From assembly GCA_002633005.1 (NCBI GenBank), contig NMRA01000213.1, positions 589,529-653,528 on the forward strand: 64,000 nt of DNA, read 5' to 3'. How positions within the stretch are numbered: position 1 is the stretch's first letter; each line of letters opens with the position of its first letter. The notes under the pieces were generated by a model, which saw nothing but the letters and a program-made list of their open reading frames with translations, searched no databases and was not told the DNA's origin. The position numbers and the translations under genes were made by a program. Source of the DNA: Phoronis australis. Taxonomy: Eukaryota > Animalia > Phoronida. This document shows, piece after piece, positions 13,504 to 42,545 of this stretch.

Positions 13504-14604
13504 TTAAATCCGTTGTTGTTTTCGTGAACATATGCTGTTACTTGCTATCATGGAGAACACAAATGTTGTATTGCACAGATTCAAACGTATCGTTGAATTG
13601 AAACTCGTGATATTATTATACGATTTTAGTGGAAAATAAGATAAGAAACTTTGGTAATTATTGAAAATCTCACCCAAGTGACTCCATTTGCGCAGAAAGT
13701 GCTATTTTGTTATCCCAAAGTCCATTCTTCCAAAATGTTGGCGGTACAGGCACGTGGAAATGTTGAACCACTACAATGAACGTAGTTCTTTATCCTCGTC
13801 GCCAATATTGTTATGTAGACACTAACGCAGTGATTTGATATAAAAAATGCATGTATATATTCTGAATGCTTGAGAAATATAAGATGCATGCAATTACTCA
13901 GTGGAAAGGGTTATCGTTTTGAACTGAAACTCAACTCTGCTTCATAGCGAAGTTCACGGTAAAATCGGAATTACGTAATTAACATCATTCTAGTCCCGTC
14001 CCAGGCTGTGTTTTGTAGACCATTAAACTGCGGCGAGAAATGTTTTCTTATGGAACAACAGGAATATTGAATTATTTCCCATGATGAATTTAATCTCATG
14101 ATGCAGCATTCCAAACTCACCGACCTATCACTCCAGTGACGACTCGCCTTGTAACCAATATTCACGAAGCACTTGCCTTTTTCTTTCGTTATGCCTGTTT
14201 TCACTCTAGAAACTCGATCTACATGTACGCAACTCGCACCTGGTGATTTTGGTCACAGCACATGGGTGCAGTTGTGAAGTCTCCTCAAGGGCAAAGCAAG
14301 TACAAGGTTGCAATGCTTATAAAATAACACGAAAAAGTTTGCTTTTCTTTGTTAGCTAGCTGCATTTACTAAACCGTTATCACGTTTTTGTAATTATATT
14401 CTTGCAGTTTCGAAGCAAGGTATATCTCTTTCATTTTTCCAATAGATAATAGTGGTCCGTGATAACGGCATTTTATATTCTGACCGTACATACCGGACTG
14501 TAGGCTGAATGTAAACAAGAAAAAGTCATGTCTAAACAGAAGTGAAAGAAGTAAGACTGTGATTCTATCATTTAAAGATGTGTGTATTTGTTCTTGCACG
14601 TTAG

Positions 14605-14694
14605 GGAATAATGTCGGCCACGATGGTTCATCCAATTACTTCCGCCCGGGCAAAACCAAAGGAACACTGCATTACTACAATTACACCCACGCCG
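14605..14694 (+). CDS. Candidate upstream 90-nt exon (phase 1-1) of the mosaic lectin gene
   Basis: ttcttgcacgttAG acceptor and ccg|GTAAGT donor; open frame NNVGHDGSSNYFRPGKTKGTLHYYNYTHA. Length, frame and donor are conserved in the paralogous copy at 63387-63476. Confidence 0.5.
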
Positions 14695-15351
14695 GTAAGT
14701 CATAAGGAAACTACACTATAATTGCAAAGTTAAACTGTTCTTGCGGCTGATTAAGAACCAGTCTGAACTCATTGTTATGAAAAACTCAAACGACGACACA
14801 TCTTTGGATCCTCGTTTTGTTAAAGTTCTCAAAGAAGCATATAGCGTGGGAAGTAAAGTAAATTCTAAAACGCTTATTTTACGAGGTCATCTGTGGTAAT
14901 TATAACAAATTGCCAGCTGTCACGTAGTGTAGCCTCGTTTGAGGTGGAATGTTACACATCTATCAGTTTTAAAAAAATAGTAAATTGATGAAAAACACAG
15001 CTAGCGCTTTATTTTAGACGTTGGTTTATTTCTTCAGATAAACAAAATGCCCTGTGCGATACTCGAATTGATAATATTCACAAAATGTGAGAGCACGGAC
15101 AGGAGCTGGCATCTTTAACAAACTACTGGTTTTAGCCTAAACTACGTGGTAGTGCAGTAGCCAAGTGTCATCTAGATACAAACAAAGACCGTGAGAGAGT
15201 TAATGTATTTTTGAACCCTCGTATCTGATGTAGACGTTTACTTGAATGGCATTGTTCTTGAGGGTATATGGACTCTTTTAAGCAACCTCATCGAAAGCCT
15301 TCGTACACATAATTTTAGTTTGACGAGCATTTTATTCAATCATATTTGTAG

Positions 15352-15627
15352 CTACAGAGGTCGCTTGTGAGCGTAAAGAAGCATCCCCAAAGTGCTCCAG
15401 TGGCGTAATAGAAGTAACTTTTGCACTGTACGGGAGGCAAGACACAACGACGTGCCATGACAATAATATGGCGAACACAAATTGCACAGCATCCGGTTTT
15501 CTTGCTAAAGCACAGTCTGCTTGTGATGGCCATGTCACGTGTTCAGTAAAAGGGTCACACGCTCATTATGGAATTCCAGACCCGTGCCACGGGACGCACA
15601 AATACATCACAATCGCTTACCTGTGCA
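15352..15627 (+). CDS. Exon: SUEL / rhamnose-galactose-binding lectin domain
   Basis: TEVACERKEASPKCSSGVIEVTFALYGRQDTTTC...C...CDGHVTC...DPCHGTHKYITIAYLC, with the YGR and DPC-x-GT-x-KY signatures; tgtAG and GTACGT, phase 1-1. Confidence 0.92.
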
Positions 15628-16411
15628 GTACGTATATGTTTATACACAAGCGGAGACAACCTAGATTCCCATCTCTTTCAGATTAGAAATGACTTCCGAT
15701 TTTGAGAAGAGCTGAAAGATTGTTCTTGCTTGAGACCGTGCAAAAATGACCAGCCTGGTTAACTAAGGGCTTATAAATTGCTGCTGTTTCGTAGCCGAAT
15801 CTGCGTTTTGCTTCAGCCACACCAGCATACACGTATATTTTCATGAATGTAACTGACTAGCAAAAGAATTAGTAATTATTAAGACCACATAAGTGAATAC
15901 AAGTCAAGGCTCAGCTACTACTACCTACAATATTTGACACTATTCATTGTTTATACTCTGGGTGGTGTTTTGCTTTAGGACTGCCAACGAATTCATTCCA
16001 AGTTTACTCTACCGAAAACGTGACCATGACCGGGAACAATATAACGACGGTAAGCGCGTCCAGCGAACATGCCTGTGCCTCTTACTGTGCTAATGACACT
16101 CAGTGTAAATCCGCAGACTACACACCTGCCACATCCGATTGCGTATTCAAAACTGCAAACGATTCGCTGTCAACATTCAACTACGACACAATACGGACAC
16201 AATCTGGAGTCAAGCATTTGGAGTTTCAATTCACCGATGGCAAGTCAAATTCTACTTACAGTTCATTTAGACTGTGTATCAGGCATCATTCTGGGTACAT
16301 GTAAATGGTCTCCCACAGTAACTTACCAGCAGATATATTTATGAATGAGTATATTGAAGTAATGGTGGTAATGGCGATTATAATAAATGTGGTGGTGATT
16401 AATGTGACAAG

Positions 16412-16455
<44 letters not shown>

Positions 16456-19400
16456 TGATGATGATGATATTAGTGGTTTGGATTGTTTTCAGAAACTGGT
16501 TGTCCAAGAGGCTGGACTATGATTGGGAACAGAAGGTGTTTTGTTGTTGCCGGCTCCAGCACATTATCTGTCACGCAAATGCAAGCCTTCGAGTACTGCG
16601 CGAGTAGAGGGGCCCTACTCGCCGTGATGGACTCTTTTGTGGAGCAGGATGGGATAACAACATTAATAAAAATGTGAGAAATGGTTGATTTGTGTATCGT
16701 TAAATTTACAGAAGTTGCATTTTCATTATAACGCCCAATGAGTCTAGCAATTTACATCCATCCAAGTTCTTCCACAGCAGTACAAAAGAGAGTGCGAAAC
16801 ACACTTCCCGGAAGAAACATTGCTGTTGTTACATTATAGATGTTGTAGTACTTCTTTTTTGGTTTGGAAATGCGATCAATCGCTGGCGTCAAAACATCCT
16901 TCGCGGGCACTTAGCCTGTTTTCGCTATCACACAATGTCGCCTGCGCAAAGATTTGTGGTAAATCCTCAAGTGCCGAGACTTCCCAGGTGTACAGTTTAC
17001 AGCCGGAACCACAATGAAAATGCATGCCACATAGTTGTTAATGTGTGTTTGTGAAAAGATAAGTGGAATTTGTGGATGTACTGTAAAATGATTTCGGTTA
17101 GACGGTGAACGTATTAATCGGTATTGAATTGGTTACTGTTCTTTACTTCATTTGAAAACCAAAAACAGGTCAAGCTTTTCTGCAATGAATAAACCTGTTA
17201 CACTGCTCTTCATTTGAAGGATACCCTAATGAATCAGGTTCCTTATTTTTCCAGGTACGCCGCGTCTCATGACATCGTTGTTGCAAATTATTGGATGGGA
17301 ATTACTAAAATTAACTCGACATTTTCCGGAAACTGGAGCACATATAACGGCAACATATTCAACAACAGTTTTACCAACTGGCGGAGTGGTGAGCCAAATG
17401 AAAGGGAAAACACTTGTGTCAAGATGAATTGCAAGGACCATGGTTGTAAATGGGAAGATGCGAGCTGCAGCGAACAAAACAACATAGTATGCGAAATGGA
17501 AGGTGTGTTTATGTAGAGGTTATTATGCCATGTCGCATCCAGCTCGGTCCTAGAAGCTCCGCGGATATCATATTTATTTCCATAATTAGAAGCAGAGCAG
17601 TGATGAGACAGGTATAACAGATTAGTGCATTATTAATATCACAATTGATTTTTTGTATTTTCAGCTATCATTTCCTTTTCTTTTTAGTCGATGTCAGACA
17701 AGGTCGAATATTAAGGTCCCACACCTAGGTCGTACAAAACGATGACCACAGACACTTGACTATGACCGCTGTCTTTATAAGAGCAAAAGTGCGACTTACA
17801 TGAAGATAAATTTGCCCCCAACAACTTCATGAGCCATTTTTATAAACGGGGTGACTCTAAATGTTTAATACGCGTTAGTGAATCTGCAAATACGATAACA
17901 TCGGATCATTGATCAAACGCTTCACCTTTGGTAAGTTATTAAAGTGTGTGGAGGTCTGTAAAGGGCTTTCGTCATTCAGAGATCCGAATGACAAATGCAC
18001 GTACACGTTTATTTTTTTGCCTAAAGTCTACTCGGGATCCTGGAGAGGAGACGTCCAACGTACATGTAGTGTTCTTTAACAGTGTGAAATGTAGAAAGAT
18101 CTTACCATTGTACTGCATGAGTTGCATACATGTTCACTGCTTTTAGCTCAGGGACCCATCAAAGGGGGCTGGGGTGAGTTCGGACCTTGGACGTCGTGTT
18201 TACTAAGTGAGAATCGCACGCGAACCAAAATGTGCAATAATCCAGCACCAAGTGGCGGCGGCTCCTATTGCCAGGAAAACAGCTCTAATACGGAGACCCA
18301 GTCTTGTCCAACTCAGGCAAAGTTGAGGATGAGCTATTACGACGAAGTCTCTGGTAAGAACATCATAAAACTCGTCGCTGGTTTATAGGGTTCTTATTGA
18401 AACAACACGTGCTCCCGCTGTGTGCATTTCTGATTTGCATCGTTTTGCATACATAGCTAATCAACTCGCCTGAAATTCCAGTCATCATGGGACTGCGATC
18501 AACGGCACCTGTCCACACGCACTTCATCAAAGTAGCTTAATAAACTGCATAATTTTGACTGAAGTATCAACAGTGTGACGCTCCTGATACCATTGTTTGG
18601 TTGTATATGGAATTTTCTCTATAATTTTAAAATCGACTATTTACTTAAGTACTGGTGTTTGGTCTGACTACAATTCTATGGGAAGCATTAGCATGTCGGA
18701 GACAACAGAGTTCCTGCACGCCCTTCTTTATCTCGTATCAATACACCAATTGAAAAATAAGAATATTATTAACAAATCATGGTTGGGCGAATTACAAATA
18801 CATGCTGCCTTCGCAAGTCATGTGAATACACTTTAACGAAGCAGAACTTCTTGTGTTCATCAGGGGACTGTTTCATGAAAGTGATCTTTGTGCTCACGAG
18901 GTTAATAACTATTCACTCACCGTGTACTATTAACCAGCGTTAAGCGTTTTATTTTGATGTTGATATCGCTTAGAAACTAAATCTTTTAAAGACTGAGTGC
19001 AATGTGAAGAAAATTTGACTGGTCTACCTGTGATAGCAATACCTTCATTTGTTAATTAGATGTTTATCGATGTTTTCGCTAAACGAATGTACCCCTAAGT
19101 TTAATCTTGTGGCGGGGAAAGTGAGATGCCTTTGGCGTGTATGAGACAACAGACGGTCCTGTACGCCCTTCTTTATCCATGCTCGTATCAATACACCAAT
19201 TGAAATATTAGAATATTTCAAACAAATCATGGTTGGGCGAATAAAAAATGCATGCTGCCATCGGAGGTCATGTGGTTGTTTATAAAGAAATAGGCAATAC
19301 TTTGTGTCACAAATCATAAAAGTGCGCGTACCTGACAGTCGAAAATACGTTATTTTCTTTAAGCAATCGAATATGGGTGCTATGTCGACAGTGATCGGCG

Positions 19401-21394
19401 AGATCTCCCAAATAGGCCTAACACTACAATACCTGAACTTACTCCATCAAAGTGCCGGGAAGCGTGTCAGGATACCGGCTACAATTACGCAGCGGTTCAA
19501 GCTGGCTACCAATGTTTCTGTGGCAACTCTTATGGTAGCAAGGGCAAAGCTTCCAACTCTGAGTGTAGTTTTGATTGTAAAGGTGACAGAACGCAGAAGT
19601 GTGGTGGGTCGTGGAGAAACTGGGTGATGCAAGCTACAACAGGGGCAGGTACGTGAATACACTTAAACGTAGCAGTGCGTTTTGTGTTCAGCAGGGGAAT
19701 GCTTCATGAAAATGCTATTTGTGGTCACCAGTTTAATAACTGTTCACTCGCCACGTACTCTTAACCAGCGTTAAACGTTTTATTTTGATGTTCATATCGC
19801 TCAGATAATAAATCCTTCAAAGACTGAGTTCAATGTGAAGGAAATTTGACTGGTTTACCTGTGACAGCAATACCTCCATTTGCCAATTAGATGTTTGTCG
19901 GTATTTTTCCTTGACGACAATGTTCCCCTAAGTTTAATCATGTGGCGGGGAAAGTGAGATACCTTTGGCGTGTCTGAGACAACAGACGGTCATGTACGCC
20001 CTTCTTATCCATGCTCGTATCAATACACCAATTGAAATATTAGAATATTTCAAACAAATCATGGTTGGGTGAATAAAAAATGCATGCTGCCATCGGAGGT
20101 CACGTGGTTGCTTACTTTGTGTCACAAATCATAAAAGTGCGCGCACCTGGCAGTCAAAAATACTTTATTTTCTTTAAGCAATCGAATATGGGTGCTATGT
20201 CGACAGTAAGTCGCGAGATATCCCACATAAGTCTGAAATACGTGAACTTACTCCATCAAAGTGCCGGAAAGCGTGTCAGGATACCGGCTACAATTACGCA
20301 GCGGTTCAAGCTGGCTTCCAATGTTTCTGTGGCAACTCTTATGGTAGCAAGGGCAAAGCTTCCGACTCTGAGTGTAGTTCTGATTGTGAAGGTGACAAAA
20401 CGCAGAAGTGTGGTGGGTCGTGGAGAAACTGGGTGATGCAAGCTACAACAGGGGCAGGTACGTGGATACACTTTAACGTAGCAGTACGTTTTGTGTTCAG
20501 CAGGGGAATGCTTCATGAAAATGCTCTTTGTGGTCACCAGGTTAATAACTGTTCACTCGCCATGTACTCTTAACCAGCGTTAAACGTTTTATTTTGATGT
20601 TCATATCGCTCAGATAATAAATCCTTCAAAGACTGAGTTCATTGTGAAGGAAATTTGACTGGTTTACCTGTGACAGCAATACCTCCATTTGCCAATTAGA
20701 TGTTTGTCGGTATTTTTGCTTGACGACAATGTTCCCCTAAGTTTAATCATGTGGCGGGGAAAGTTAGGTGAGTTTACCTACATGTAAAGCGTAAACTGAC
20801 ATTTTGAAAAATAGTAAAGCGTTGTTTACCGGAAACACCTTAGCGGCATGCAGTGGGTATCATGACGGTGGGGTATAAAAACCAGGCTGAAGACTTAAAC
20901 TCGGCTTTCTTAAACCTGAGATGTACTGTAACTTGCATTTCACCATCGTGGTTTAAAATCCTGAAAGTCAGTTTTGTCGAGACCAGGGAGCGGATTTGGT
21001 AAAACCAGTTATAAAGAATTATGGGATCTTACTGTTCGATCTGCCACGGCGTTAACTCGACAATGACGCTATTGAAGTGCTTAATGGAACCAGGTGGGTC
21101 TGTTAACAATAACATCAGTAGAGGTCTGGCAAATGTTCTTCTGAGGAACTAGGTTTCTTTACCGTAGAGAATAGGCCTATTTTTTAGAGAATCATAAAAC
21201 TTACGCCAATTCGTCTCAATGTAAATAACAAGTTTGGATAACTATTGTTTCAGTCACCTTGGTTGCATAGATCCTGGGACAGTTAAAGAAATTTTGGAGA
21301 TGCTAAAACATGAAAGCCAAACAAAATTTCATCTGAAAACAACACAGTGAAGGACGCAGTGGCCTCCAACATTTTTTTTCTGATAACTGCACCC

Positions 21395-21444
<50 letters not shown>

Positions 21445-24400
21445 AACCCATGATAAGTCGCAACGCAATCAATGCCATTTTACCTGTCATTTTTGCTACT
21501 TATTTTTTGGTGGTCTGGCCCGGTTTTCCCTAAATCCGCTACTGGGACTAAAAGAGGTGAACCTCAGTGTGAAGCATCAAGTGGTGTTAAACCTCATTGG
21601 AGATGTTGCCGTCTTTAGTCCTACATGACGACGAAAATCTGTCCAATCATTCGTATTCTTAGGAATCACGGTGCAAGTGGTACTGGTCTACTGTACGTTT
21701 GAATGAGCTTGTTGTCGTAAAAGTGAAAATATTCCACTATCGCTCTAAAATTGCGTCCGTGATGCACTCCGCGTCGTCGTTTTTCAGGCACATGGTTGAG
21801 CACAACTGTATCGTAGAGGTCTTTCAACTTTAACCTGCGTCTGACCAAGACTTAAGTTAAACTTTGCTTTTGATATTGGGCTAAGGAAATCAGCCCTGGG
21901 TTATTATTTATGCTGGAATTAAACCAGGTTCTAGATGACAACTGGACTAAAAGTCATGTCGCTTAAATGCAGGTTATCTTTAAACGTGGTCCATTCCTAA
22001 TGTAGAACAAGTTTTACTTGAAACCATTTTGATGAATGCTCCAGACGCGAAACAACAAATAGTATGTTGGCATCAAATGACTTAATCCATCATTTTGCAT
22101 TCTGTGATTTTAATACCTGCTTTGTATCATTTCAGTATGTAGTGGTACTGACAGATTCCAACTAATTATTGTTGACAAAGTGGCATTTAGCGGACATGCC
22201 ATTGAAACGGTCAGTAATGTCGACAGTGAACTAAACTGCGCCATTTTGTGCCTGAATGACGCAGAGTGCCAGTCTGCGGATTACTCCAGTGTGTCGTCCA
22301 CGTGCACTTTCTTAGATGTCACGTGGGATAACCAGATGTTGTCTTCCAATTCCTTGGCAGAGAAGTCTCAGATGGCGCATTTAGAATTTCAATGTTCCTT
22401 AGGTAAAATATCATCAAAATAATTTGACACCTTTATAGGCTTTGCAAAATCAAATAGAAAACGAAAAGCCAAGAGTACAATGAATCCATATCCGCAAGGA
22501 AAGGGCAGCCAGTGAGATTCGTTGCTGTTGATAAATGAGTCCACAATGCAATAAAGTTGCTTGCCCTCGCAGTCAGTGTTGGGAACGGGACAAGAAACGA
22601 AATGAAATAGCAGTACATTTCGAAAACAAAACCGATCTTAATCTTTCTTGTCTCTAGTTTTGCTTCAATAAGCCTGAAAATTTGTTAGGTTTTTGTGCTG
22701 CACATTTCATTTGCTAGTCTCTGGTGGGTTGCTGGTGAAATGAGGTTGGTATTCACGTGCTCATCGACTGGACATGCGCCTGTATGGTGTCTTTTTTTTG
22801 TTTTCAGTTGTTTCCGTACACAGTATATCATTTATTAAATTGTATGAAATGTACCTACTCAACAATTTATTTCATCATCTGACTTTTTTGAAAAAGTGGT
22901 CTCAGATATATGGATTTTGTTGTACCTCGAATGAGCATTTAACAGATAGCATGATAGTCGTCATATGGTAGAGTTGTAGAATCCTCTGTCGTTCGGCGCA
23001 AGCAACATCGCTAGTAGACGTATAGGCCCTACAGTATGTTTGATATTCTGAGATAACTTCATTTCAAGAGTATTTGGAGCGGACGAAACTTGTGCTCACC
23101 ACAGATGTTAGTAACCAACAGTGGAGTATTCAGGGTGTGGTAGGGGACACTCCATAACCGTCCAGGATCAAGTTGTCTACGTACATGTAAGCCATAAAAA
23201 TGGAACTGCCAGCGCCATCCTTTTCGCCAGGAATTCGACTTTTAGTAGATAGCTGCCAGCTTTTCAAGCAAAGATCACTTGCGTCCAGTTTCGTTGATTC
23301 TAGATTAGATGACTCATATCCGTCAAATCCATGCTTTGTGATGCGCAAGTGTCTGTTTTTACTGTGCAGAAAAGTCAGTGTACACATGTGTACGTTACGA
23401 CATCTTTCAGATCACCAATGTATTTTGCAGATCTGGGCTGCCCACCTGGGTTCCATCTTTACGACAACTCCAAATGCTACGCTTTAACAGGATCAGATTC
23501 TCTGAAGGTAGCCTTCACAGAAGCGATAGACTATTGCTACGCCAGGGCAAGTCAACCGGTGTTTGTAGACGACGTCGAAGAGAAGAATGACATAATTGCT
23601 TTTACAAATAAGTACGTTAAACAATACATATGCTGGACATTTTGAGCGAAACCACTTAGAAAAAAACAACAAACAGAGTTGTATGTGTTGTATACGTGTA
23701 GGCAAAGTGAGACAAATGTATCACTTGCTGAAATCGTTGTACGACTCTTAATCTATTTTGTAGTTCGAGAATGTATTGTTGTCTAAGCTTAACGTTCGAC
23801 AACCTTTAGGGCGTGGTATAGACGAAATTTTCTTTTTAGGACCGACCATTACTTTAAGTTTTTAAGAGCCTGAGACACCCAACAGAATGTTGTAACCTCA
23901 ATCGCTGACACTCTCAGCCGCGTACTTGTGTCCTTGAGCCAGATATTTTACTTTTGTAGCTGCAGTCGATGTGCATGTATTAGTCGCGGCTGGAAAGTAA
24001 CCCGTGGACCAGTGCACTGCTGGCAGTGTTCCGTCCGGGCTCATGCTATCGAAACAGAAGTCAATTACATGTACCTGTCCAATGAGTATGGCGATTCATG
24101 AAAGATTAGCTTTGTTATTATCGAGAGTACGCTAGTGCTTAGATAACCGTGTCCTTAAGTAATCCTGTACCCATGCCTGCTGTTCAGACATGAACTGAAA
24201 GTTTGTTTGGTACTAGTTACTTCATATCCATTTATAACGCGGCTTCGTCAAAGATTACTTCTTAAATGTTTGCTAATGAAACATCCCGTGTTTCAATTCA
24301 TTAAGATTCCCCTGAAAATCACTTACCGGAGTTTCGCTTCTTGTGTATTCCTCATTGTTAGTTGTTTATCATCATCGGGGAAACATTACCCCCTGCAACC

Positions 24401-33400: not shown

Positions 33401-36400
33401 AATGACAGCCTGCCGGTAATTTGTGAGAAAAACTTGCCAGGTAGGCCTAAGTCTGATAACTGTGGCGCGCATCGTTTGGCAAAATAAACTTTAATTACAT
33501 TTTTTCTTTCGTGGTGTTCTTTATTGAAATGAAAGAGGGATAGTACATGAATGATAATGGCCAGTTTTAATGTTGTCTCAACTACTCATGGTGACGGTCC
33601 AAATCGTTTTTCTTGTTTTTGCTAAACAAACACCGAGACATCTTGCACAAAATCGGGGTGGCTATGTGATGTTTGCATTGAAACATTTAGTAACATATTC
33701 ACGTTTTACTCTGAATTTGATTGATACAGGGTGTTTCAAAATTATCTGAATTATTAATGCCATGAAGTGGTTTCACTGGAAAACACTGTTATTGTTTTTT
33801 AATCATTTTAGGTTTTAAAAAGTTTCCTTACAAAACCAAAGATTTAGAAAACATATCTCACTTAACATTATAATTGCAAAGATACAACGAATGCAGTTTC
33901 AAGAATTTACACAAACGTAAATTCCGAATGTCAACAACGATTGTGCTGGGTCTCTACTGCTTATTACCAACATCGACAAATTACTCTTGAAGCTATTCTT
34001 TTCTTAACATTCACGAATTCAAAATCGAGCATGAGGTTTGTCTGTCGTTAAACAGGCACGCCAATTTGTTGCCCATCAAATTCTTGAGACCGGACGCCAA
34101 AATCATATAATGTGCGAGGTGTGTGGTAACGAAGACAATAATGCCAATGAATTTATTATTGCACAACAGCTGATGGACCAAGAAGCCTGAACAATCTGCC
34201 TGCAACCTCGTTCAAAGTGTCATCTGTCCTTTCGCCGAATTGTTCCTTCTTGCCTACATTCAGTGAAATTGCATGGTGCGCCACCACCACATCGTATCCC
34301 TACGATAATATAGAGGTCGATCTTGGTGTTGACTGGGTGGTTACAGCAATTGGGACGAAGGTAATTCCATTCGCATGGTTTTCGTTGTATCCAACGTCTT
34401 TTAATTCATTCACAGAACTAAAGCCGTGAAACATTTCTGTTTGTGGACAGGGCGTGTTTTGTGCCCGAGGCAGAGAAATGTTCATGAATAACACAAATCT
34501 CTTCCTAACCCATGAACAGGCAAGTTTTTTCCGACTCACGGTAATTATCAGCAACATCTTGGAGCATCATGCATGGCATGCTCTGAATTCAAACATCTAG
34601 CGCAAGATACAGGTAGGTATGCACATAATGACTGAAAAGTCGATTCGATACATTAAGTCTCAAAATTGCTATTATTTACAGGGTAGCACAAGCCACGACC
34701 AATGGGTTACAGTTTACGAATTTTACTTGGGTATGGACAGTCATTCTGTTGAGTGCGAACAAGCTTTCCCTCGCAGGAGCGTATGTAAAGCGGTAAGGAT
34801 GTAGCTGACAGCTGGTTCATGCCCTCATTGATTTTGATCGAAATGTGACGTTATATCATAAATTGCGCCAATAACACTTAATCCATGGCCTTGGTAAAGT
34901 TGTCATTGGTTCTGTTTTGATAGTTCAATAATTTATTGAAATAATCACAAATGCATAACATAATAGCACTCCGTACGGAAATCGCTGAGAGCGTTATACC
35001 CGGGCCTTAGACATTTTAAAAATGCACTAATTATTGCGTTAACAATAAATACTGAATAAAAACTTCTTCTGTAACTGTAGCTGAGATGAAAATTTCAATG
35101 TTAAGCGAATCTAGTACGTACACCACAATGCAAAGGAGTGAAGTAAGTTCATGCATTTATTAACTTTTACCCAAGGTCAATGTTTTCGCTCCCAAAAATG
35201 TGACAGTGGCCGACTTACGGCTAAAAACTTTCATTTCTCCACTTGTGATAAATTCCAGCACACCGCAGTCATCGTTCATTGATGTTTAAAATCACATGAG
35301 TTGCCACTACCACTGCAATGGAACGTTGCTTTATTGCATGCGCAAGAATAAAAAACAACGCCTCAGCATCAACTGCTATTTGACTGCGTTTTCGAACAAA
35401 ATGGCTTCCGCATAGGCTACCGATCTATCCTTGCAGACCTGGAGTTGTCTGCTTGGGCGCAGGCTACCAACGGGTTGGAAAAAAACCCATGACCTGTGTT
35501 TTTAAAAGGAAATTGTAGAATATTCCGAGTTTTTATATTAGTACAAAATCTTGACACCAGGCCCTGGAATACATTTTCGTTTCCAATTTTCTATCACCGG
35601 CGTTTTTAATGCGTACGATCAGTTACGACAGGACGTGCGACCATTCCCTGTTGCTCCATTAATTCGGTGGTAGTTTTGTCTGAATTTAAAATAGTGGGTT
35701 TGTTTTATAATGCGATCCAGGGCTGCTCCTATGGTTTCCAAGTTGAATGTACAGAAATGATTAAGATAAATTATAATGCCTTATCAAATAAGTTCAAGAA
35801 CATTGTGATAAGGCGAACAATATCTGTTTATAAAAACATTTACTCATTCTTCATAATTTCTCTATTTTCAGTTCAACGGTAACGTAAACAAAAACTCAGA
35901 GGTTGTTAACAGGCTAGAGTTTCCGCGCGTGGCACGATTTGTGAGAATTCAACCTCTTTCCTATCATGGTTGGAAGTCTTTACGATTGGAAATATACGGC
36001 TTTGCATACGGTAATTGTTCTTAATAGGTCCACTCACATATCTCATTATTTTGGCGTAACAGATTTGATTGCAACTACATGAGATGTAACATCGTAAACT
36101 TAAGCAATGTGCTAGCAAACGAGCTTCCTTTTTCTATTCTTGACTGCTTAGGCGTACTCTGGGATCTGTTTTGTTGGGCTTATTAGCGATAGCAAGGGAA
36201 AGGTACTGGTATTTTTTATTTCGTTATTTCTTAATGTCAATAAGCCAATCAGTTGCACCACTTTTCATTTTGGAGCCAGCCACACATAGCACAATAATAC
36301 ACTGAATAATCATGACTACAATAAATAAATTGAAATAATAAGTTAACTATGTCAGGACTTCAGGCGTTATACATTACATCCTCTTAGACGGAAATTTTAA

Positions 36401-39400
36401 TTTGCAAAAATTAGCCCTGGGAACGTCAGAGTAAAACATCACTGGCAGTAATAGAGTCTTGAACAAGGTATGGAACACAGCATGATTCGAATAATCAAAT
36501 GCTTGCTTTGGCGTATCTCAGTGTTTTGACTTGACTTGATGTAAGCGAATGCCTATCCCCGTGGATATCCATCATAAACCCAAAAGTATTTGATTCTTTA
36601 TAGCGTGATAATTTTTACTGGGAACAATAATGCCTCACCTTGATTGAAGAGGAATATACAACTGGTTTCATTTGTCCGAGGCTGTTGTACTTTCGGACAG
36701 GTATTATCAAAAACAATCCATCTTAGACCCTGTCACTCCAAACCTATGCAAACTAAGTTTGGCTGTAAAATACCTGGCGCAACTGTGGCAAACGCTTTCC
36801 AAAGATCCAGAAAAATAACAGATATCAGGAGACCTTTGTCCAGGCTGCTTATGATATTGTCAGAAAATTCTACCGACAAAGAATTAGCCTTACCCAGAAA
36901 TCTTGCTGTATTTAGCCACTAAAGAATTAATAAATGTACATATGTCGTCGAAAAAGCAGACTTATTCCTTGCCATATGATGGAGTTCCAAGCATTGCTTG
37001 TCCTTGCTTAGGTCCTTGAGTGCAACTTTAAAGAAAAACAAGATTATTGCTGACATTTATGTGGGCGACGTTTTTAATCGAAGAGCACAAGTCTCAAAAT
37101 GGCTTGGTGTAGAGATGAGAACACGAACTTTAAAATTAGCGCGTAAGTAGAAAAAAGACATATTGATCCGACGTTTCGGTTCATTCGCTATATACCTTTC
37201 TCAAGACAATAGTTCACATTATTCAATCAGGCGACACAAGTGGAGAACAGATTGTACAGGTACACATCAAAATGCATTCTGAGGGGAGACACCAGAAGTC
37301 AAAACAGTCGGAGTTCAAATGAACCAATGTATCTATTGAGATGGCGCTCGGCATGGTAAATGCATAGCCTCCTTTATACCACAATATTAGCCTCGAATGG
37401 CAGATACAACCGTGTAATAACCCATAAAATTATCTCACTAACGCCCTTCGGGCGATAATTCTCCAAAATCCACACGGGCTTTAGATAACGGGGGATAACG
37501 ACTTCGCCATGTAATAATCTATATTTATAAGGAGCCTGATGGTGACATTATTCTTGTGTAAGTTCTGAACACCAGAGTAATCTATAGTGTGACCAGTTTT
37601 CAATGAATGCCTTGAGAATGGTTTATAGTGAATAACCGAAACTTCGGATCAATATGTCTTGTTTTACCTATGTGCTAATTTTAAAGTTCGTGCTCTTTTT
37701 TGGTCAAAAAGGAGATGAGAACCTACAATTCTTTTACCTAAACTTGTATAATTCGCACTTGATTAATTCAAGTAGGCTGATTTGCTCTATGAAAAAAGGA
37801 AATGTTACATCAGTTTCTCATTGGTCACCAACTCAACCTCACCCCCTGTTATAACCAGTTTCTCCACCGCACTTCCACTTGAAACCGGTTTCGTAACTCG
37901 GTAGTGCCCAATTTTATGGCCGCCACCGCCCCCTCGCTCTCCAAAAGTCGTCTCTTCACCTAGATCAATTAGCTTTACTGTAAGACTGCAACTCTTTGGT
38001 TGCAAAGAGATGATTATTGCCTGGTCTGATGACGCCGATCTGGAGTCTGATTTGTGGTTAAATACGTTGCACAAATAGTCAAAACTGATAAATTCGAAGT
38101 GAACTCGAGCTAAAACAATCAACTGAAAAAAGTAACAAAAGGGTAATCAATAATCCTCGTATCGTTTGTGGACGACATCATTTCATACGCTATTCTAGAT
38201 ACCCCACGAGATAAATATGGTGGATGGTCGAGCTGGGGAGCCTGGTCACAATGCACTGAGCGAACCGACACTACCCGAAATCGGAGTCGAGTTTGTAACA
38301 ACCCGGTACCCCAAACAGGTCGGCACTGCCTCGGAACGCCATTCTCCTACAAGGATTGTCCAACCGGTATGCACCACTTTCTAATACGATACAGCCATTT
38401 AGATAGCTAAGAGTGGTCTCATGGTAAATTAGCATAACCTAAAAATGGAGTGTTATTGGATATTGTCATCTCGTTGGTGTCAAGTTATGCCTTTGTGATT
38501 GCATGAAGTGAGTCTGGTATTGTGGAGTAGAAAACTGTATGGTGTTTTCAACCATCACTATTTTTGTGATGCATGAACGTGTGTATCATCAAGAGATACT
38601 AACATAGTTAGCCTATGAGCATATATTAGCGATGACTCGGTTACTTAAATACATGAACAACTTAGCATTCGGTAACTTTCGTCAACCCGTAACATTTGTG
38701 AAAAAGTGTGATAAAGACTTGCAACTGCTTATAAGTTGGCGTTTAGCGCAATACGCGTTTGAAACACGTCTGCGGAGAAAAAAAACGTCTACCTCTTTAA
38801 ATTCTGTAGTGGAGAGAGCATATTACAAGAATTTCAGTTTTGTCCTTCGAGCGAAATAAAGTATAACAACACGAAATAGGTGAAGCAGTTTGGAATCAAA
38901 TGGCCAAAACGTTTAAGTAAACCAGTAAATCGTTCAAATTATTTAAGAAAACAGTTTTGGAAATTCAGTTTTGCTTTGGCTTTCCCCCAAAACAGTTGAT
39001 GGGAATTGGACAACGTGGTCAAACTGGACGGCGTGCTCACTTACCTGTGGAGGAGGTTCACGGAGTCGAACGCGGAAGTGTGCCAACCCTTATCCCATGA
39101 ATGGTGGCCGGTATTGCGTAGGCAACGCACAGGAGACGGTGACATGCAACACTTCGCATTGTCCAGTGAACGGGCATTGGTCAGACTGGATAAATAGGAC
39201 GTCATGCAGTGTCTCTTGCGGCGGAGGGTCTTATAACAGATTAAGGAATTGTTCGAGTCCTTCGCCTGCGCATGGGGGGCTGTACTGCCCAGGAAACAGT
39301 TCTGAACTTGTCGTCTGCAATACTTACCCGTGCCCCATTGATGGAAACTGGACTTCATGGTCACAGTGGTCCAATTGCTCGTCGGAATGTGGCTTGTCAG

Positions 39401-42400
39401 TTCGAAACAGAACTCGAAACTGCACCAACCCAGCGCCAGCATTTGGAGGTGTCGGATGTGAGGAAAACGACACGGACATATCAGTTTGTGTTGTGGAAAA
39501 GTGCTCATGTAAGTTACCAGTCTTCTTGTGGAGATATTATAAATGCCTGTACTGTAACAATCATGTCATTTGATTGAAACTCCGAGTAACTGAATCACGT
39601 CGCGTTTTCTTTATACTCCATGTAGGACACATTTACACGAGTTGAAGGAGAATGCCACCCGATATAATTAGTCTTTTTTGCCGTCTTAATTGGTCTATAT
39701 CCACATCGCCTCGCAAACGGTCGACCTTACCTTGCCAAGAGGTGTCGCGTTAACCTGTGAGGAAGGTGAGAAACGACGCTAGGGACGTCAGTGGTTCATA
39801 TGCAGAGTGAATGCCGCTATGTTGCGGTGCATCGTTCCCGCTTCTCCGAACTAAGCAGCTGCGAGGAAAGCGGGTATATCGTTTTTTTTTACTTTCTCGA
39901 GAGTCCGAAATACTTAGGAAGTGGCTCATGGTAGTGAAGAATGAAATGTACATGTACCCTGTAAATAGCAAGTATGAGACCGTGAAACATTTCCGTGTCT
40001 GCAGCCTGCACTGAGACGTCCGACGAATGGGCTTACCAAATAACTCCATACGTTCCGTTGTCTGAGCTTGTTCACGGAGCCTCTCTAGTATTTCTTCATC
40101 ACTGTATTCCTGTTCGAATTGATAGCCTGTAATACTTAACGATCCACTTGCTAAGTCGTGACCTTTGAGCTCTAGCTCGTCCTAAGTCGGGATTGCGAGT
40201 TGCCATGTTGGCGTTTATTACTGAGCGTTCTGTTTCAAAATGAATTATTCTCACCCTAACCAATACTTACATAAAACTGAAACCAAGTCTGTCTCATTAG
40301 ATGCAATTTGTAATGCCTTTGGATTGTTCGTGAGTGCAAATGATTTGAGAAGCCCGCAATGAATAAATCACTGCGTTACCGGCTTTAGGGGAAATAAAAC
40401 TACTTGACGGGTCACCGAGGCCGTGTGAGCTCATGCTAATTTAGTGTTTGCTGACAGAAAGTATTGTGAAACAACTCGATTTCCATCCCACGGCCAGGTG
40501 TTAGGGGAATCTTTATTTACATTTACATTACTCAAATAATGATTGTCAATGTACAACTTCTGCCCTGACGGTGCGAGTATAGATTGGCAGTTTCGAGGTA
40601 ATTCACCTCCGTCTGCCGTCAGGTGTCAGGTACCGCAACCGTACGTATTGTTATGCAGTAGAACTACTCGATCTAAATTGATACAAATTTGGTTGTTTTT
40701 TGGGTGGCATGCTCCTTTAAAGTGTTTGCGATAGTCCGAAAATACATAGGATTTTTCTACATGCAATAATGCATAATGCTTCGGTCGTTAGACATGTGCC
40801 GAATACAACCGACTGCCAGGTATTGATACATGTACACCGTGCTGGGATTTCCTATACGTGCGAAATAGGGAGCCTTGAGTGGTTACAACCCAACACTCTG
40901 AAAACTCAATATTCTGACAGCACACTGTTCCCACAATTTACCTGATATACCGACAATGATCTCTTCTCTAAATTTTGTTGTATGTTACACGTTGTTGGTG
41001 ATTTTTATGCCATTTATTTATTGATTTCAAAAACCTCCTCATGGGGGAACATGCAACAATAATAAACAATATACAACAATTTTGAAAAATAATGCTTTGG
41101 TTATACGCGATGAAGATTGGGCTCGCGATGTGTCTAGAGCCGAGGAGAGTACGAATCAAGGAAATCACTCTGAGGTCTGTCACTATTTCTCACTCTGTGC
41201 ATCTTACCCGGAGTAAGCTGCCTGGTATAATTCATAAACGTTTGTATGCATGTACATGTGCTATACGTTTGTATGCATGTACATGTGCTATACGTTTTTG
41301 GGAATGATAACCTCTGACATGGCATATACTGCAAAATTTGAGGTGATTGATACTTCCTCGCTTTTTGCAGAAATCTGTACAAAGGACACAAATTATCTGG
41401 CGAACGTGAATTTTGCTTCTTTACCTTCGGTGAGCGCCACCATTCGGAGAGCTTAAGGAGTTTTAGCAGTTGTCCAGTATTATCATCGTTATGACTAAAA
41501 AGAACTACGTGACCATTTCACGATGGAGAAGTCTATCATTAGTTGCCACTTTCAAAGCTGACACTGTGATAACCAATCAAAATCGGAATTATGAAAGCAA
41601 ACATTTTTGAAGGCACACAAATCATTGAATACATGCTGATAGTTTGCTTGGGTAACAACTTTCATTCACTCATTCTATTGAAATTCGATTTCTTATAGTC
41701 GCCCGACGGCAGCCAGTCGACTGATGTCGCACATCCGATTTGCATCGTTTTTCATCTTTGTAAATAATCTACTGCTTACTTTCCCACAGCGCGATTCAAG
41801 TGCACTTGCTACAAATTATCAGATGATAGAATAGGACTACTGCGATTTTAACGGACTTATTTCACAATATGGTATTTCAGGGAAATACATAATGCCTCGC
41901 GCGGTTTATTAGCATACTTTCGGACCAGTCCACCTTTGTACTAGTGCACCTTCGGACTTGTCTACCGTTGGACTAGTGCACCTTCATACTAGTGCACCTT
42001 CGGACTTTCAGATAATTAACAAGAATCTTCATGTCTAACTTAAAATTAATTTGGGGCGCCAGTTGTTAGATTAACTTTAATGCAAGGTGTATTTGTATTT
42101 ACTTAATTATAATTTATTGTAATGTCGCAATATACATGTAATATCATGTGTCTTGTCTGGCTTACGTTGTCGTTTTCATAACCAACTCGAGGCTATATCA
42201 GCGTTGTGTTAATTAAAAGAAATTTATGTAATTATACGATGTCTGTTTGGAATTTGTATGCGTTACATTTAACGTATACGGTGTGGACTTGGCGAAAGAA
42301 CTTCAGGAAAAAAATAAACAAATCCTTTTCCATTACGCAGATTGCAAAGACAACAACAACAATTGTAACTATTGGGCTACAAAAGGCTATTGTAACAACA

Positions 42401-42516
42401 ACAATTATAAGGCGTATATGCAGAAGAATTGTCGAGCATCCTGCAAGGTCTGTGGTGGAGGAAACGGCGGAGGCGGCGGCGGTGGTGGTGGTGGTGGCGG
42501 TGGTAACAGTACGTAA
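15352..42516 (+). CDS. Multi-exon gene for a mosaic extracellular lectin (SUEL-PAN-CTL-TSP1-WSC-WSC-PAN-CTL-TSP1-PAN-CTL-F5/8C-TSP1x4-ShKT); 5' end missing, 3' end uncertain
   Basis: 20 exons with AG acceptors and GT (one GC) donors join in compatible phases with no stop codon, about 4.58 kb of coding sequence. Domains were recognised from conserved Cys/Trp motifs (see exon entries). Many N-x-S/T sequons. Confidence 0.85.
15979..16239 (+). CDS. Exon: PAN/Apple domain 1 (ends at a GC donor)
   Basis: ...SEHACASYCANDTQCKSADY...CVF...HLEFQFTD, with C-x3-C-x5-C-x-S spacing; donor g|GCAAGT at the same position as the GT donors of the other two PAN exons. Confidence 0.85.
16412..16468. repeat. Compound (GAC)n(GAT)n microsatellite just upstream of the CTL1 exon
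   Basis: Direct reading. Confidence 0.95.
16493..16673 (+). CDS. Exon: C-type lectin domain 1, N-terminal half
   Basis: GCPRGWTMIGNRRCF...AFEYCASRGALLAV; tttcAG and GTGAGA, phase 1-2. Confidence 0.9.
17255..17502 (+). CDS. Exon: C-type lectin domain 1, C-terminal half (EPN motif)
   Basis: YWMGI...FTNWRSGEPNERENTCV...WEDASC...IVCE; ttccAG and GTGTGT, phase 2-1. Confidence 0.92.
18147..18353 (+). CDS. Exon: thrombospondin type-1 repeat
   Basis: GGWGEFGPWTSC...RTRTKMCNNPAPSGGGSYC...ETQSC; tttAG and GTAAGA, phase 1-1. Confidence 0.9.
19364..19648 (+). CDS. Exon: WSC (putative carbohydrate-binding) domain, copy 1
   Basis: Frame not shown in the ORF track: IEYGCYVDSDRRDLP...LTPSKCREACQDTGYNYAAVQAGYQCFCGN...ECSFDCKGDRTQKCGGSWRN; ttctttaAG and GTACGT, phase 1-1. 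Confidence 0.9.
20179..20457 (+). CDS. Exon: WSC domain, copy 2 (recent tandem duplicate)
   Basis: IEYGCYVDSKSRDIP...LTPSKCRKACQDTGYNYAAVQAGFQCFCGN...ECSSDCEGDKTQKCGGSWRN; same splice sites as copy 1, 6 nt shorter, still in frame. Confidence 0.88.
21396..21442. repeat. (CA)n microsatellite
   Basis: Direct reading. Confidence 0.95.
22136..22402 (+). CDS. Exon: PAN/Apple domain 2
   Basis: SELNCAILCLNDAECQSADY...CTF...HLEFQCSL; tttcAG and GTAAAA, phase 1-1. Confidence 0.88.
23431..23611 (+). CDS. Exon: C-type lectin domain 2, N-terminal half
   Basis: GCPPGFHLYDNSKCY...FTEAIDYCYAR; ttgcAG and GTACGT, phase 1-2; 181 nt, the same length as the CTL1 N exon. Confidence 0.9.
23865..24090 (+). mobile_element. 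Possible degenerate CORE-type SINE
   Basis: tgtgtccttgagccagatattttac (about 23926-23950) resembles the CORE motif; no intact A/B box seen. Confidence 0.3.
24581..24822 (+). CDS. Exon: C-type lectin domain 2, C-terminal half (EPS motif)
   Basis: YWLGM...YTYWRNGEPSHDCALMNC...WEGVDC...IICE; ttctAG and GTACGT, phase 2-1. Confidence 0.9.
25244..25447 (+). CDS. Exon: divergent TSP1 repeat
   Basis: GGWTQVRWNGPCVPCGKRTLFAQCDNPPPVNGGYC...EEDYC; tacAG and GTAAGT, phase 1-1. Confidence 0.82.
27601..27907. mobile_element. MITE with related termini and 5-bp TSD GTGCA, 30 nt upstream of the PAN3 exon
   Basis: cagtgacgggtctagg...cctaaatccgcctatg flanked by gtgca at 27596-27600 and 27908-27912. Confidence 0.72.
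27937..28212 (+). CDS. Exon: PAN/Apple domain 3
   Basis: SEMDCAILCLDESGCKSADF...CIL...HLEFACVV; tgtAG and GTAAGT, phase 1-1. Confidence 0.88.
29279..30208. repeat. Perfect 28-bp minisatellite, about 33 copies
   Basis: (cttgttatctaaactggtttgtctgtac)n with no variant unit seen and no spacers. Confidence 0.97.
30645..32031. mobile_element. Probable degenerate TTAA-type (Kolobok-like) DNA element
   Basis: Right end cgactacactacccc-TTAA; subterminal inverted match agttatttttgctcga (about 30658) and tcgagcaaaataaaataact (about 31992); left terminus eroded. Confidence 0.35.
32570..32741 (+). CDS. Exon: C-type lectin-like domain 3, N-terminal half
   Basis: Frame not in the ORF track: DKSPYWWDNSSRWNAFSYSLQHLDYEEAKRHCDMRNSHVLFLNSLQEVSQIIQW; ttgcAG and GTAAGT, phase 1-2. 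Confidence 0.8.
33241..33440 (+). CDS. Exon: C-type lectin-like domain 3, C-terminal half (no EPN/QPD motif)
   Basis: VFWLS...NQCLSLVCNFTHCYEMARMCNDSLPVICEK; cgcAG and GTAGGC, phase 2-1. Confidence 0.82.
34170..34360 (+). CDS. Exon: F5/8 type C (discoidin) domain, part 1
   Basis: LNNLPATSFKVSS...AWCA...IEVDLGVDWVVTAIGTK; aacAG and GTAATT, phase 1-0. Confidence 0.82.
34682..34792 (+). CDS. Exon: F5/8 type C domain, part 2
   Basis: GSTSHDQWVTVYEFYLGMDS...; tacAG acceptor; donor GTAAGG at 34793 (alternative in-phase GTATGT at 34781), phase 0-0. Confidence 0.8.
35872..36010 (+). CDS. Exon: F5/8 type C domain, part 3
   Basis: Frame not in the ORF track: FNGNVNKNSEVVNRLEFPRVARFVRIQPLSYHGWKSLRLEIYG, with the ARFVRI.P and LR.E.YG signatures; tttcAG and GTAATT, phase 0-1. 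Confidence 0.9.
37120..37693. mobile_element. Element with about 90-bp inverted ends carrying hammerhead-like motifs (probable PLE remnant)
   Basis: 37120-37208 is the reverse complement of 37608-37693; TTGAGAA..ggt(t)..(a)acc GAAAC(G/T)TC motif in both arms. Confidence 0.5.
38199..38366 (+). CDS. Exon: TSP1 repeat
   Basis: GGWSSWGAWSQC...RNRSRVCNNPVP...C.G...C; tctAG and GTATGC, phase 1-1. Confidence 0.9.
38996..39508 (+). CDS. Exon: three tandem TSP1 repeats
   Basis: DGNWTTWSNWTACSLTCGGG.R.R.R.C.NP.P..GG..C repeated three times; aacAG and GTAAGT, phase 1-1. Confidence 0.95.
39646..40716. mobile_element. Kolobok-like non-autonomous DNA transposon, copy 1
   Basis: TIRs aggagaatgccaccc and gggtggcatgctcct, flanked by ttga and ttaa (TTAA-type TSD, AG termini). 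Confidence 0.7.
42341..42516 (+). CDS. Exon: ShKT domain plus poly-Gly linker (ends at donor 42509 or at TAA 42514-42516)
   Basis: CKDNNNNCNYWATKGYCNNNNYKAYMQKNCRASCKVC (six-Cys ShKT pattern ending C-x3-C-x2-C) followed by a G-rich tail; cattacgcAG acceptor; a phase-1 GTACGT donor precedes the stop. Linkage to the upstream exons is inferred from phase only. Confidence 0.8.
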
Positions 42517-42545
42517 TATGGTCAATTTCATCATACTGCTCCTAA

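What the first reader, a model, noticed from the sequence alone, without database searches (positions are those of the whole stretch)
15352..42516. One protein combining five glycan-binding-type folds (SUEL, PAN, C-type lectin, WSC, discoidin) with six TSP1 repeats and a ShKT domain
Seen: 20 stop-free exons splice in frame into SUEL-[PAN-CTL-TSP1]-WSC-WSC-[PAN-CTL-TSP1]-[PAN-CTL]-F5/8C-TSP1x4-ShKT, about 1,500 aa, rich in N-x-S/T sites, with no transmembrane segment in the window. Established: SUEL domains bind rhamnose/galactose; EPN-type CTLs prefer mannose/GlcNAc/glucose; PAN, WSC and F5/8C domains include carbohydrate binders; ShKT occurs in toxins and secreted proteins. Inference: a secreted multivalent glycan-recognition protein (innate pattern recognition, mucus/adhesive, or gamete recognition). 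I do not recognise this architecture as a named gene.
Basis: partly seen in the sequence, partly recalled or inferred. Interest (0 to 1): 0.85.

Follow-up and report, generated by a model that had tools for sequence, protein, structure and literature searches.

The report
Mosaic lectin with fast-evolving optional exons
Twenty exons in an animal genome read through in frame into 17 sugar-binding-type and adhesion domains, likely one secreted protein, whose two recently duplicated WSC exons differ only at amino-acid-changing letters and are missing from the few transcripts read across that spot, so it likely works as a variable recogniser of microbial or mucus sugars.

Summary
The gene is real. 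Twenty exons (15352-42516, +) splice stop-free into 1,525 aa: SUEL-[PAN-CTL-TSR]-WSC-WSC-[PAN-CTL-TSR]-[PAN-CTL-F5/8C-TSR]-TSRx3-ShKT. All 17 domains have even cysteine counts, N-glycosylation sites are enriched (38 vs 20.5), and there is no membrane helix. The first exon and signal peptide were not found, so 'secreted' is inferred. RNA is sparse: 2 of 19 modelled junctions were seen. 'Five glycan-binding folds' overstates it: SUEL keeps 5 of 6 sugar ligands, CTL1 is EPN/WED, CTL2 and CTL3 lack the canonical site, and PAN and F5/8C have no evidence for sugar binding. New here: the WSC exons sit in a three-unit tandem array whose oldest unit has lost its exon; the two live copies differ at 17 non-synonymous and 0 synonymous letters (p about 0.01, post hoc); four RNA reads join TSR1 straight to PAN2 without WSC; no read covers WSC. 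No protein of this architecture turned up in limited searches, and the scan had not noted it on other DNA. Best reading: a lineage-specific, exon-shuffled secreted recognition lectin, rhamnospondin-like in logic. New architecture, known kind; moderate interest.

The parts
15352..15627 (+). Exon 1 of the model: SUEL/rhamnose-binding lectin domain, 8 Cys, YGR and DPC motifs; opens in phase 1, so an upstream exon is missing
   Evidence: Pfam PF02140 E 4.7e-18; PDB 5h4s, 2zx0 alignments; sense RNA depth in X2
15979..16239 (+). PAN1 exon (4 Cys), followed by a GC-AG intron
   Evidence: PF00024 E 1.2e-10; donor position matches PAN2/PAN3
16493..16673 (+). CTL1, first half
   Evidence: alignment with CTL2a/3a; no Pfam hit alone
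17255..17502 (+). CTL1, second half; EPN present, WED in place of WND
   Evidence: PF00059 E 1.1e-8; PDB mannose receptor/CLEC4 hits; RNA in X3
18147..18353 (+). TSR1 (4 Cys) plus linker; donor joined directly to PAN2 in 4 reads of X3
   Evidence: PF00090 E 0.009, below cut-off
18685..19122 (+). Exon-less 'ghost' unit of the WSC tandem array: 381 bases including the whole WSC exon and both splice sites are absent
   Evidence: alignment to unit 1; 86-87% identity to the live units
19364..19648 (+). WSC1 exon (8 Cys), in array unit 19123-19955
   Evidence: PF01822 E 2e-20; Kremen1 E 2e-12; no RNA reads
20179..20457 (+). WSC2 exon (8 Cys), in array unit 19956-20764; 17 non-synonymous and 0 synonymous differences from WSC1
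   Evidence: PF01822 E 5.8e-19; no RNA reads
22136..22402 (+). PAN2 exon (6 Cys)
   Evidence: PF00024 E 2.9e-8; RNA
23431..23611 (+). CTL2, first half
   Evidence: faint RNA depth in X2
24581..24822 (+). CTL2, second half; EPS/WEG, shortened loop
   Evidence: PF00059 E 3.3e-7
25244..25447 (+). Divergent TSR2 (6 Cys) plus linker
   Evidence: no Pfam hit; alignment, z 3.1-8.6; weak fold matches
27937..28212 (+). PAN3 exon (6 Cys)
   Evidence: PF00024 E 1.4e-9
32570..32741 (+). CTL3, first half (degenerate; first Cys pair lost)
   Evidence: no Pfam hit
33241..33440 (+). CTL3, second half; long loop deleted, no EPN/QPD
   Evidence: no Pfam or PDB hit; faint RNA in X1
34170..34360 (+). F5/8C, first exon
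   Evidence: weak neuropilin hit E 0.75
34682..34792 (+). F5/8C, second exon (a second phase-0 donor lies 6 bases earlier)
   Evidence: sequence, splice scores; no family hit
35872..36010 (+). F5/8C, third exon
   Evidence: PF00754 E 2.7e-5, below cut-off; factor V E 5e-9; joint to next exon in 2 reads
38199..38366 (+). TSR3 (4 Cys), closing the third module
   Evidence: PF00090 E 0.008
38996..39508 (+). TSR4-6, three canonical 6-Cys repeats in one exon, WxxW motifs, two O-fucosylation-type motifs
   Evidence: PF00090 E 8e-32; joint to ShKT in 10 + 19 reads
42341..42516 (+). ShKT domain, Gly-rich tail and TAA stop
   Evidence: PF01549 E 4.7e-10; nearest solved: MMP23 ShKT E 0.03; RNA

Best explanation
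The 20 exons form a chain of 17 disulfide-type extracellular domains, likely one secreted and heavily glycosylated protein that likely captures microbial or mucus sugars with its SUEL head and an optional, fast-evolving WSC pair, held on a scaffold of PAN, degenerate C-type lectin, F5/8C and thrombospondin modules. Shown: the reading frame, the domain order, paired cysteines, excess glycosylation sites, no membrane helix, low sense-strand transcription, two modelled junctions, one WSC-skipping junction, the WSC array with an exon-less relic, and the 17:0 substitution pattern. Inferred origin: a PAN-CTL-TSR unit was triplicated long ago (about 20-37% identity) and phase-1 cassettes (WSC, F5/8C, SUEL, ShKT) were shuffled in; the WSC unit has since been gained and lost by unequal crossing-over. 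Inferred function: SUEL binds L-rhamnose or galactose ends, WSC copies diverge under selection for different ligands, CTL1 may bind mannose-type sugars weakly or not at all, and the other modules mostly space, anchor or bind proteins, giving an agglutinin or opsonin at an epithelial or mucus surface. The ShKT is read as an ordinary terminal module, not a venom toxin.
For: Frame and phases. 104 Cys fall as even counts in 17 of 17 domains, with whole pairs lost together in PAN1, CTL3, TSR1 and TSR3. 38 sequons vs 20.5. SUEL keeps the equivalents of CSL3 Glu7, Tyr27, Asp79, Gly83, Lys86, with His for Asn74 (alignment; ligand list PMC3269628). WSC1/WSC2: 17 non-synonymous, 0 synonymous letters, binomial p 0.005-0.011, 0.023-0.043 without the indel zone; non-synonymous rate 0.08 vs 0.034 in flanking intron, Fisher p 0.006; 8 of 14 changed residues alter charge and all Cys are kept. 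Precedents: rhamnospondin, secreted RBL + 8 TSRs, proposed microbe binder (PMC3269628; PMC5446238); bivalve CTL proteins with WSC and other domains, putatively immune (PMC10140915); fungal WSC lectins bind beta-glucan (PMC9252488). No Pfam-detectable gene start, enzyme or membrane domain in 127 other stop-free stretches.
Against: No signal peptide exon found; the one candidate (9377-9493) is no more frequent than background and ends in the wrong phase. 17 of 19 modelled junctions unseen; 28212-32570 was not covered by either lay; no read on either WSC exon in 3 of 3 runs. Reads for the WSC-skipping junction carry 3-5 other differences, and X3's ShKT reads differ at 6 sites in 18 of 18 with no TSR6-ShKT joint, so a paralogue may be mixed in. 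Two of three CTLs lack the canonical site. The selection test is post hoc, on one pair; synonymous deficit against intron alone is not significant (p 0.09); RNA variants elsewhere in the 5' half are 5 non-synonymous to 3 synonymous, no excess. Positive selection on lectin domains is also seen in gamete recognition (PMC1934368). No ligand, tissue or induction data.
Confidence: 0.5

Rival explanations
1. It is a structural or adhesive matrix protein (mucus, tube, shell or glue) in which lectin-like modules cross-link host glycans rather than recognise microbes.
For: Long multivalent chain, dense glycosylation, six TSRs, Gly-rich tail, degenerate CTLs; bivalve CTLs also serve food sorting and mineralisation (PMC10140915 introduction).
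Against: No free cysteine for polymerisation (17 of 17 domains even); very low RNA level in 3 of 3 runs (tissue unknown); 17:0 divergence of WSC fits ligand diversification better than a structural role.
Confidence: 0.2
2. It is a gamete-recognition protein (egg coat or sperm surface), its WSC copies diverging under sexual selection.
For: SUEL, CTL and WSC domains all occur in sea urchin REJ/PKD1 proteins, whose lectin domains are under positive selection (PMC1934368); low level in the sampled RNA.
Against: No REJ, GPS, PLAT or membrane segment; the frame stops after ShKT with the last junction read in RNA.
Confidence: 0.12
3. The exons belong to two or more neighbouring genes or paralogues, or the WSC exons are now silent, so the 1,525-aa product is never made.
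For: Only 2 of 19 junctions seen; WSC exons unread and skipped; X3 covers the 5' half and a variant ShKT but almost none of the 3' half.
Against: No stop-bearing terminal exon or convincing leader exon between modules (2 weak candidates in 19 introns); all internal exons are phase-compatible with strong splice sites; depth rises toward the one stop in X1 and X2; the skip junction itself links modules 1 and 2; the WSC frames are intact with all Cys kept.
Confidence: 0.12
4. It is a type II membrane receptor anchored by an unseen N-terminal helix.
For: The 5' end is missing and an 837-base gap lies at about 10288-11125.
Against: No such exon found in 15 kb upstream; an N-terminal SUEL head next to the membrane with TSR/ShKT outermost would be an odd arrangement (inference).
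Confidence: 0.05
5. It is a venom or toxin precursor that releases the ShKT domain.
For: ShK and TSR proteins occur in cnidarian nematocysts (PMC5446238).
Against: The nearest solved structures are the non-venom ShKT modules of MMP23 and a nematode metalloproteinase (E 0.03-0.06); no dibasic cleavage site precedes it.
Confidence: 0.01

Closest known systems
Rhamnospondin (Hydractinia symbiolongicarpus; PMC3269628 section 6 read, PMC5446238 passages)
   Same: Secreted-type modular protein pairing one RBL/SUEL domain with thrombospondin type-1 repeats; proposed microbe recognition; diversified by duplication.
   Different: 726 aa, eight tandem TSRs and no PAN, CTL, WSC, F5/8C or ShKT; the review places its RBL domain at the C-terminus, here SUEL is first; no orthology shown.
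Bivalve and lancelet C-type-lectin-domain-containing proteins with extra domains (PMC10140915, parts 1-2 of 7 and passages)
   Same: Lineage-specific, uncharacterised mosaics of CTL with WSC and other modules, putatively mucosal immune.
   Different: The passages read name WSC, sushi, scavenger, apextrin, Ig and CUB partners; thrombospondin and ShK have 0 occurrences in the main text; figures not seen.
PKD1/REJ family (SpREJ1-10, hPKD1, hPKD1L2; PMC1934368 passages)
   Same: The only named family I found that uses SUEL, CTL and WSC among its members; lectin domains under positive selection.
   Different: Defined by REJ, GPS, PLAT and membrane segments, none present here; no thrombospondin in that paper's text.
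Fish rhamnose-binding lectins CSL2/CSL3 (PDB 9vwi, 2zx0) and 5h4s
   Same: SUEL domain: 8 Cys, YGR and DPC motifs, 5 of 6 primary ligands.
   Different: They are 2-3 tandem SUEL domains only; here one SUEL heads 16 other domains.
Unnamed P0051 (922 aa, ENA)
   Same: Alternating PAN and TSR domains.
   Different: No CTL, WSC, SUEL, F5/8C or ShKT; organism not given.

Membership tests
SUEL/RBL domain (PF02140) | 8 Cys, YGR and DPC motifs | tested here: met
   motifs as in PMC3269628
SUEL/RBL domain (PF02140) | Primary sugar ligands Glu7, Tyr27, Asn74, Asp79, Gly83, Lys86 (CSL3 numbering) | tested here: inconclusive
   5 of 6 kept, His at the Asn74 position; binding itself untested
Rhamnospondin | One RBL domain plus eight tandem TSRs and nothing else | tested here: not met
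   six TSRs, dispersed, plus 10 other domains
Rhamnospondin | Signal peptide / secretion | tested here: inconclusive
   5' exon not found; no membrane helix
Ca2+-dependent mannose-type C-type lectin | EPN plus WND at calcium site 2 | tested here: not met
   CTL1 EPN/WED, CTL2 EPS/WEG, CTL3 neither; variant motifs can still bind in bivalves (PMC12842671), so binding is not excluded
C-type lectin-like domain (fold) | Conserved Cys/Trp framework, Pfam PF00059 | tested here: met
   CTL1 and CTL2 pass the cut-off; CTL3 only by alignment to them
PKD1/REJ | REJ, GPS, PLAT and membrane segments | tested here: not met
   stop after ShKT, last junction in RNA
WSC domain (PF01822) | 8-Cys WSC profile | tested here: met
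WSC domain (PF01822) | Carbohydrate (beta-glucan) binding | not testable with these tools
   shown for fungal members (PMC9252488 passages); not for this pair
Thrombospondin type-1 repeat (PF00090) | WxxW, RxR and six Cys | tested here: inconclusive
   TSR4-6 canonical; TSR1 and TSR3 have 4 Cys and score below cut-off; TSR2 has no Pfam hit
F5/8 type C (PF00754) | Profile match over the whole domain | tested here: inconclusive
   only exon pieces could be scanned: C-terminal piece E 2.7e-5 below cut-off, factor V E 5e-9; N-terminal piece E 0.75
ShK-like domain (PF01549) | Six-Cys ShK profile | tested here: met
   E 4.7e-10, 6 Cys
ShK-type venom toxins | Small processed peptide with potassium-channel block | not testable with these tools
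   nearest structures are non-venom modules; activity untested

The most novel reading that the evidence does not exclude
The locus is a structurally variable recognition gene: WSC heads are gained and lost as a tandem cassette, diverge under positive selection, and are included or left out between alleles or transcripts, so individuals deploy different versions of one multi-lectin sensor, an invertebrate receptor-diversity system built on WSC rather than Ig or fibrinogen domains.
Probability: 0.3. Interest if true: 0.65.

Novelty: new variant of a known kind. Interest (0 to 1): 0.42.

Why it matters
Unnamed lectin mosaics are common in marine invertebrates, so the domain list alone is a modest result. 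What lifts this one is that it catches exon shuffling in progress: a relic, two live copies and a cassette-less transcript at one spot, with amino-acid-only divergence between the live copies. Animal WSC domains have few known ligands; two 85%-identical copies differing at 14 residues are a ready-made pair for finding what an animal WSC domain binds and whether the difference changes specificity.

Tried and rejected
No whole genome is held, so paralogues could not be counted. No RNA holder was listed by the word index; raw-read runs of the same species label were laid instead. Homologue searches with single exons or exon alignments: none at E<=0.001, 3 WSC-only proteins, 392 PAN proteins of which 150 were listed; my own seven domain profiles over 153 fetched proteins found one PAN+TSR protein and none with PAN+CTL; Pfam on 41 of the 150 found none with a CTL, one with a SUEL among many PANs (P0078). 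These collections are poor in spliced animal genes, so this is weak evidence of absence; CDART/InterPro could not be queried. The metagenome scan gave one locus, rejected as chance (29-residue match, 29% GC). The Atlas did not hold the PAN2 exon; the stored homologue P0129 gave only generic PAN clusters. Leader exon candidates: 9377-9493 (background rate, phase 0), 15047-15086 (inside a repeat also at 63231-63991), micro-exon 14408-14419 (no read support shown). Pfam on 127 other stop-free stretches found no missed domain exon or neighbour gene (two weak unrelated hits). Considered that WSC1/WSC2 are two haplotypes assembled in tandem: less likely because the alignment runs through both unit junctions and all three units end at the same point, but not excluded without DNA reads. 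A kringle-like reading at 12998-13372 is the reverse strand of a GIY-YIG-like fragment (by eye; no Pfam hit). Paper searches with no match to this architecture: 0-2 papers, none relevant; background only. Earlier scan notes: none near, none by sequence.
Full report
OBSERVATION. I rebuilt the gene from the sequence and spliced it by coordinate. Twenty + strand exons between 15352 and 42516 give 1,525 residues and one terminal stop. All acceptors are AG, 18 of 19 donors are GT, and one is GC at the place where the other two PAN exons have GT. All junctions between domains are phase 1; each CTL has a phase-2 intron at the same spot; F5/8C has two phase-0 introns. I picked sites by eye to follow the domain frames, so the through-reading is not itself independent; the shared intron positions among the three modules and the cysteine pairing are. 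Pfam on the 20 exon pieces hit the expected family in 13, above the curated cut-off in 10. The other seven are domain halves or degenerate copies and rest on alignments, shuffle z-scores (CTL3 is weak, z 2.2 and 4.9) and PDB hits. The protein has 104 cysteines, an even number in 17 of 17 domains, and 38 N-x-S/T sites against 20.5 +/- 4.0 in 2,000 shuffles. No membrane helix.

ANATOMY. The order is better written SUEL-[PAN-CTL-TSR]-WSC-WSC-[PAN-CTL-TSR]-[PAN-CTL-F5/8C-TSR]-TSRx3-ShKT-Gly tail: an old triplicated unit (PAN pairs 32-37% identical, CTL1/CTL2 36%) with cassettes inserted. TSR1 and TSR3 share a four-cysteine pattern. The first exon opens in phase 1 without a Met, so at least one exon is missing. 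A signal-like leader at 9377-9493 ends in phase 0 and such candidates occur at background rate (1 on the minus strand, 1 in 43-64 kb, 1 upstream). A gap of about 837 N lies upstream. Pfam on 127 further stop-free stretches found no missed domain exon.

RNA. Three raw-read runs of the same species label, 18-19% of each read, and one contig set were laid on 30300-43000 and the three runs on 11130-29250. Depth on exons is low and on the sense strand, rising toward the stop in X1 and X2. Seen: 39508-42341 (10 reads in X1, 19 in X2), 36010-38199 (2 reads in X1; resolved). That is 2 of 19 modelled junctions; the tool lists joints from 3 reads, hid 15 joints, and the 28212-32570 junction was in neither lay. 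In X3 four reads join 18353 to 22136, leaving out both WSC exons; the frame stays open (1,337 aa). Those reads carry 3-5 other differences, and X3's ShKT reads differ at six sites in 18 of 18, so X3 holds a divergent allele or a close paralogue. No run has reads on the WSC exons. The 20-exon form is therefore plausible but not shown.

THE WSC CASSETTE. The region 18685-20764 is three head-to-tail units. The first lacks 381 bases that include the exon and both splice sites and is 86-87% identical to the others; the two live units are 95.5-97.4% identical in intron but 94.3% in exon. The exons differ by one 6-base indel and 17 letters, all non-synonymous, against 64-74 synonymous sites with none (binomial p 0.005-0.011; 0.023-0.043 without the indel zone); the non-synonymous rate, 0.08, exceeds the intron rate, 0.034 (Fisher p 0.006); the synonymous deficit against intron is not significant (p 0.09). 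Eight of 14 changed residues alter charge and all cysteines are kept. This is one post hoc comparison, but decay would have left synonymous changes. Eight sense-read variants in the 5' half are 5 non-synonymous to 3 synonymous, no excess.

WHICH DOMAINS CAN BIND SUGAR. SUEL aligns to CSL3 with Glu7, Tyr27, Asp79, Gly83 and Lys86 equivalents kept and His for Asn74 (ligands from PMC3269628). CTL1 has EPN but WED for WND, and Asn where a further Glu ligand usually stands (that ligand is recalled; alignment). CTL2 has EPS/WEG with a shorter loop, CTL3 has lost the loop. Bivalve lectins with variant motifs can still bind (PMC12842671 passages and part of Table 4), so this lowers rather than excludes activity. 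WSC matches Kremen1; beta-glucan binding is reported for fungal members (PMC9252488 passages). F5/8C matches factor V, neuropilin and lactadherin. ShKT is nearest to the modules of MMP23 and a nematode metalloproteinase.

MECHANISM. Most likely (0.5) a secreted, glycosylated recognition protein at an epithelial or mucus surface: SUEL as the constant sugar-binding head, WSC as optional variable heads, the rest as scaffold and protein-binding modules. Shown are the anatomy, transcription and substitution pattern; inferred are secretion, single-transcript continuity (about 0.75), ligands and role. Rivals are a matrix or adhesive protein (0.2), gamete recognition (0.12), split genes or silent WSC exons (0.12), a type II receptor (0.05) and a toxin precursor (0.01).

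COMPARISON AND NOVELTY. It works like rhamnospondin (RBL plus TSRs; PMC3269628 section 6; PMC5446238 passages) but fails its architecture test; it shares SUEL, CTL and WSC with the PKD1/REJ family (PMC1934368 passages) but lacks REJ, GPS, PLAT and membrane segments. It fits the broad class of lineage-specific CTL mosaics (PMC10140915: abstract, introduction, results and start of discussion read; passages; one supplementary file searched without hits; figures and other supplements unseen and may show similar architectures). PMC4581086 (passages) only lists a WSC protein among mussel gill transcripts. Sequence searches found no protein with this order, and ten paper searches no description; both are limited.

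VERDICT. Observation confirmed, interpretation partly supported. New variant of a known kind. Interest 0.42; the bolder reading, a WSC-based receptor-diversity cassette, has probability 0.3 and would merit 0.65.

Noticed in passing
window 18685-20764: Three head-to-tail units of about 820 bases; the first lacks 381 bases including the WSC exon, with a 3-base microhomology at the break.
   Followed up: yes
window 16240-16492: GC-AG intron after PAN1, at the position of the GT donors of PAN2 and PAN3; junction not seen in RNA.
   Followed up: partly
window 12708-13531: Inverted repeat with 392-base arms at 99% and a 40-base spacer, holding a GIY-YIG-like fragment recalled as Penelope-type; many repeat-derived RNA reads; no Pfam hit.
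   Followed up: partly
window 29279-30208: Perfect array of 33 copies of a 28-base unit in the longest intron.
   Followed up: no
window 39645-40720 and 42545-45025: Dispersed repeat present in the last intron and directly after the stop codon; it draws most of the RNA depth and gives joints without splice ends.
   Followed up: partly
window 42378-42435: In run X3, 18 of 18 ShKT reads differ from the window at six sites and no TSR6-ShKT joint is listed, pointing to a close paralogue or divergent allele.
   Followed up: partly
window 22322-22339: Three antisense reads in X1 on the PAN2 exon with five differences each; possibly another locus.
   Followed up: no
window 3138-3969 (+) and 45870-46391 (-): Fragments that read like the C-terminal end of LINE reverse transcriptases (by eye; no Pfam hit).
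   Followed up: no
window 14449-15211 and 63231-63991: An 83-94% identical dispersed repeat lies just upstream of the SUEL exon.
   Followed up: no
window 51373-52584 and 43014-43982: Further tandem duplications of about 600 and 446 bases.
   Followed up: no
window 53286-54552 (+), 56878-57177 (-), 4573-4866 (+): Stop-free stretches with protein-like composition but no Pfam hit; possible exons of other genes.
   Followed up: partly
window 10288-11125: Assembly gap of about 837 N that could hide the missing 5' exon.
   Followed up: no
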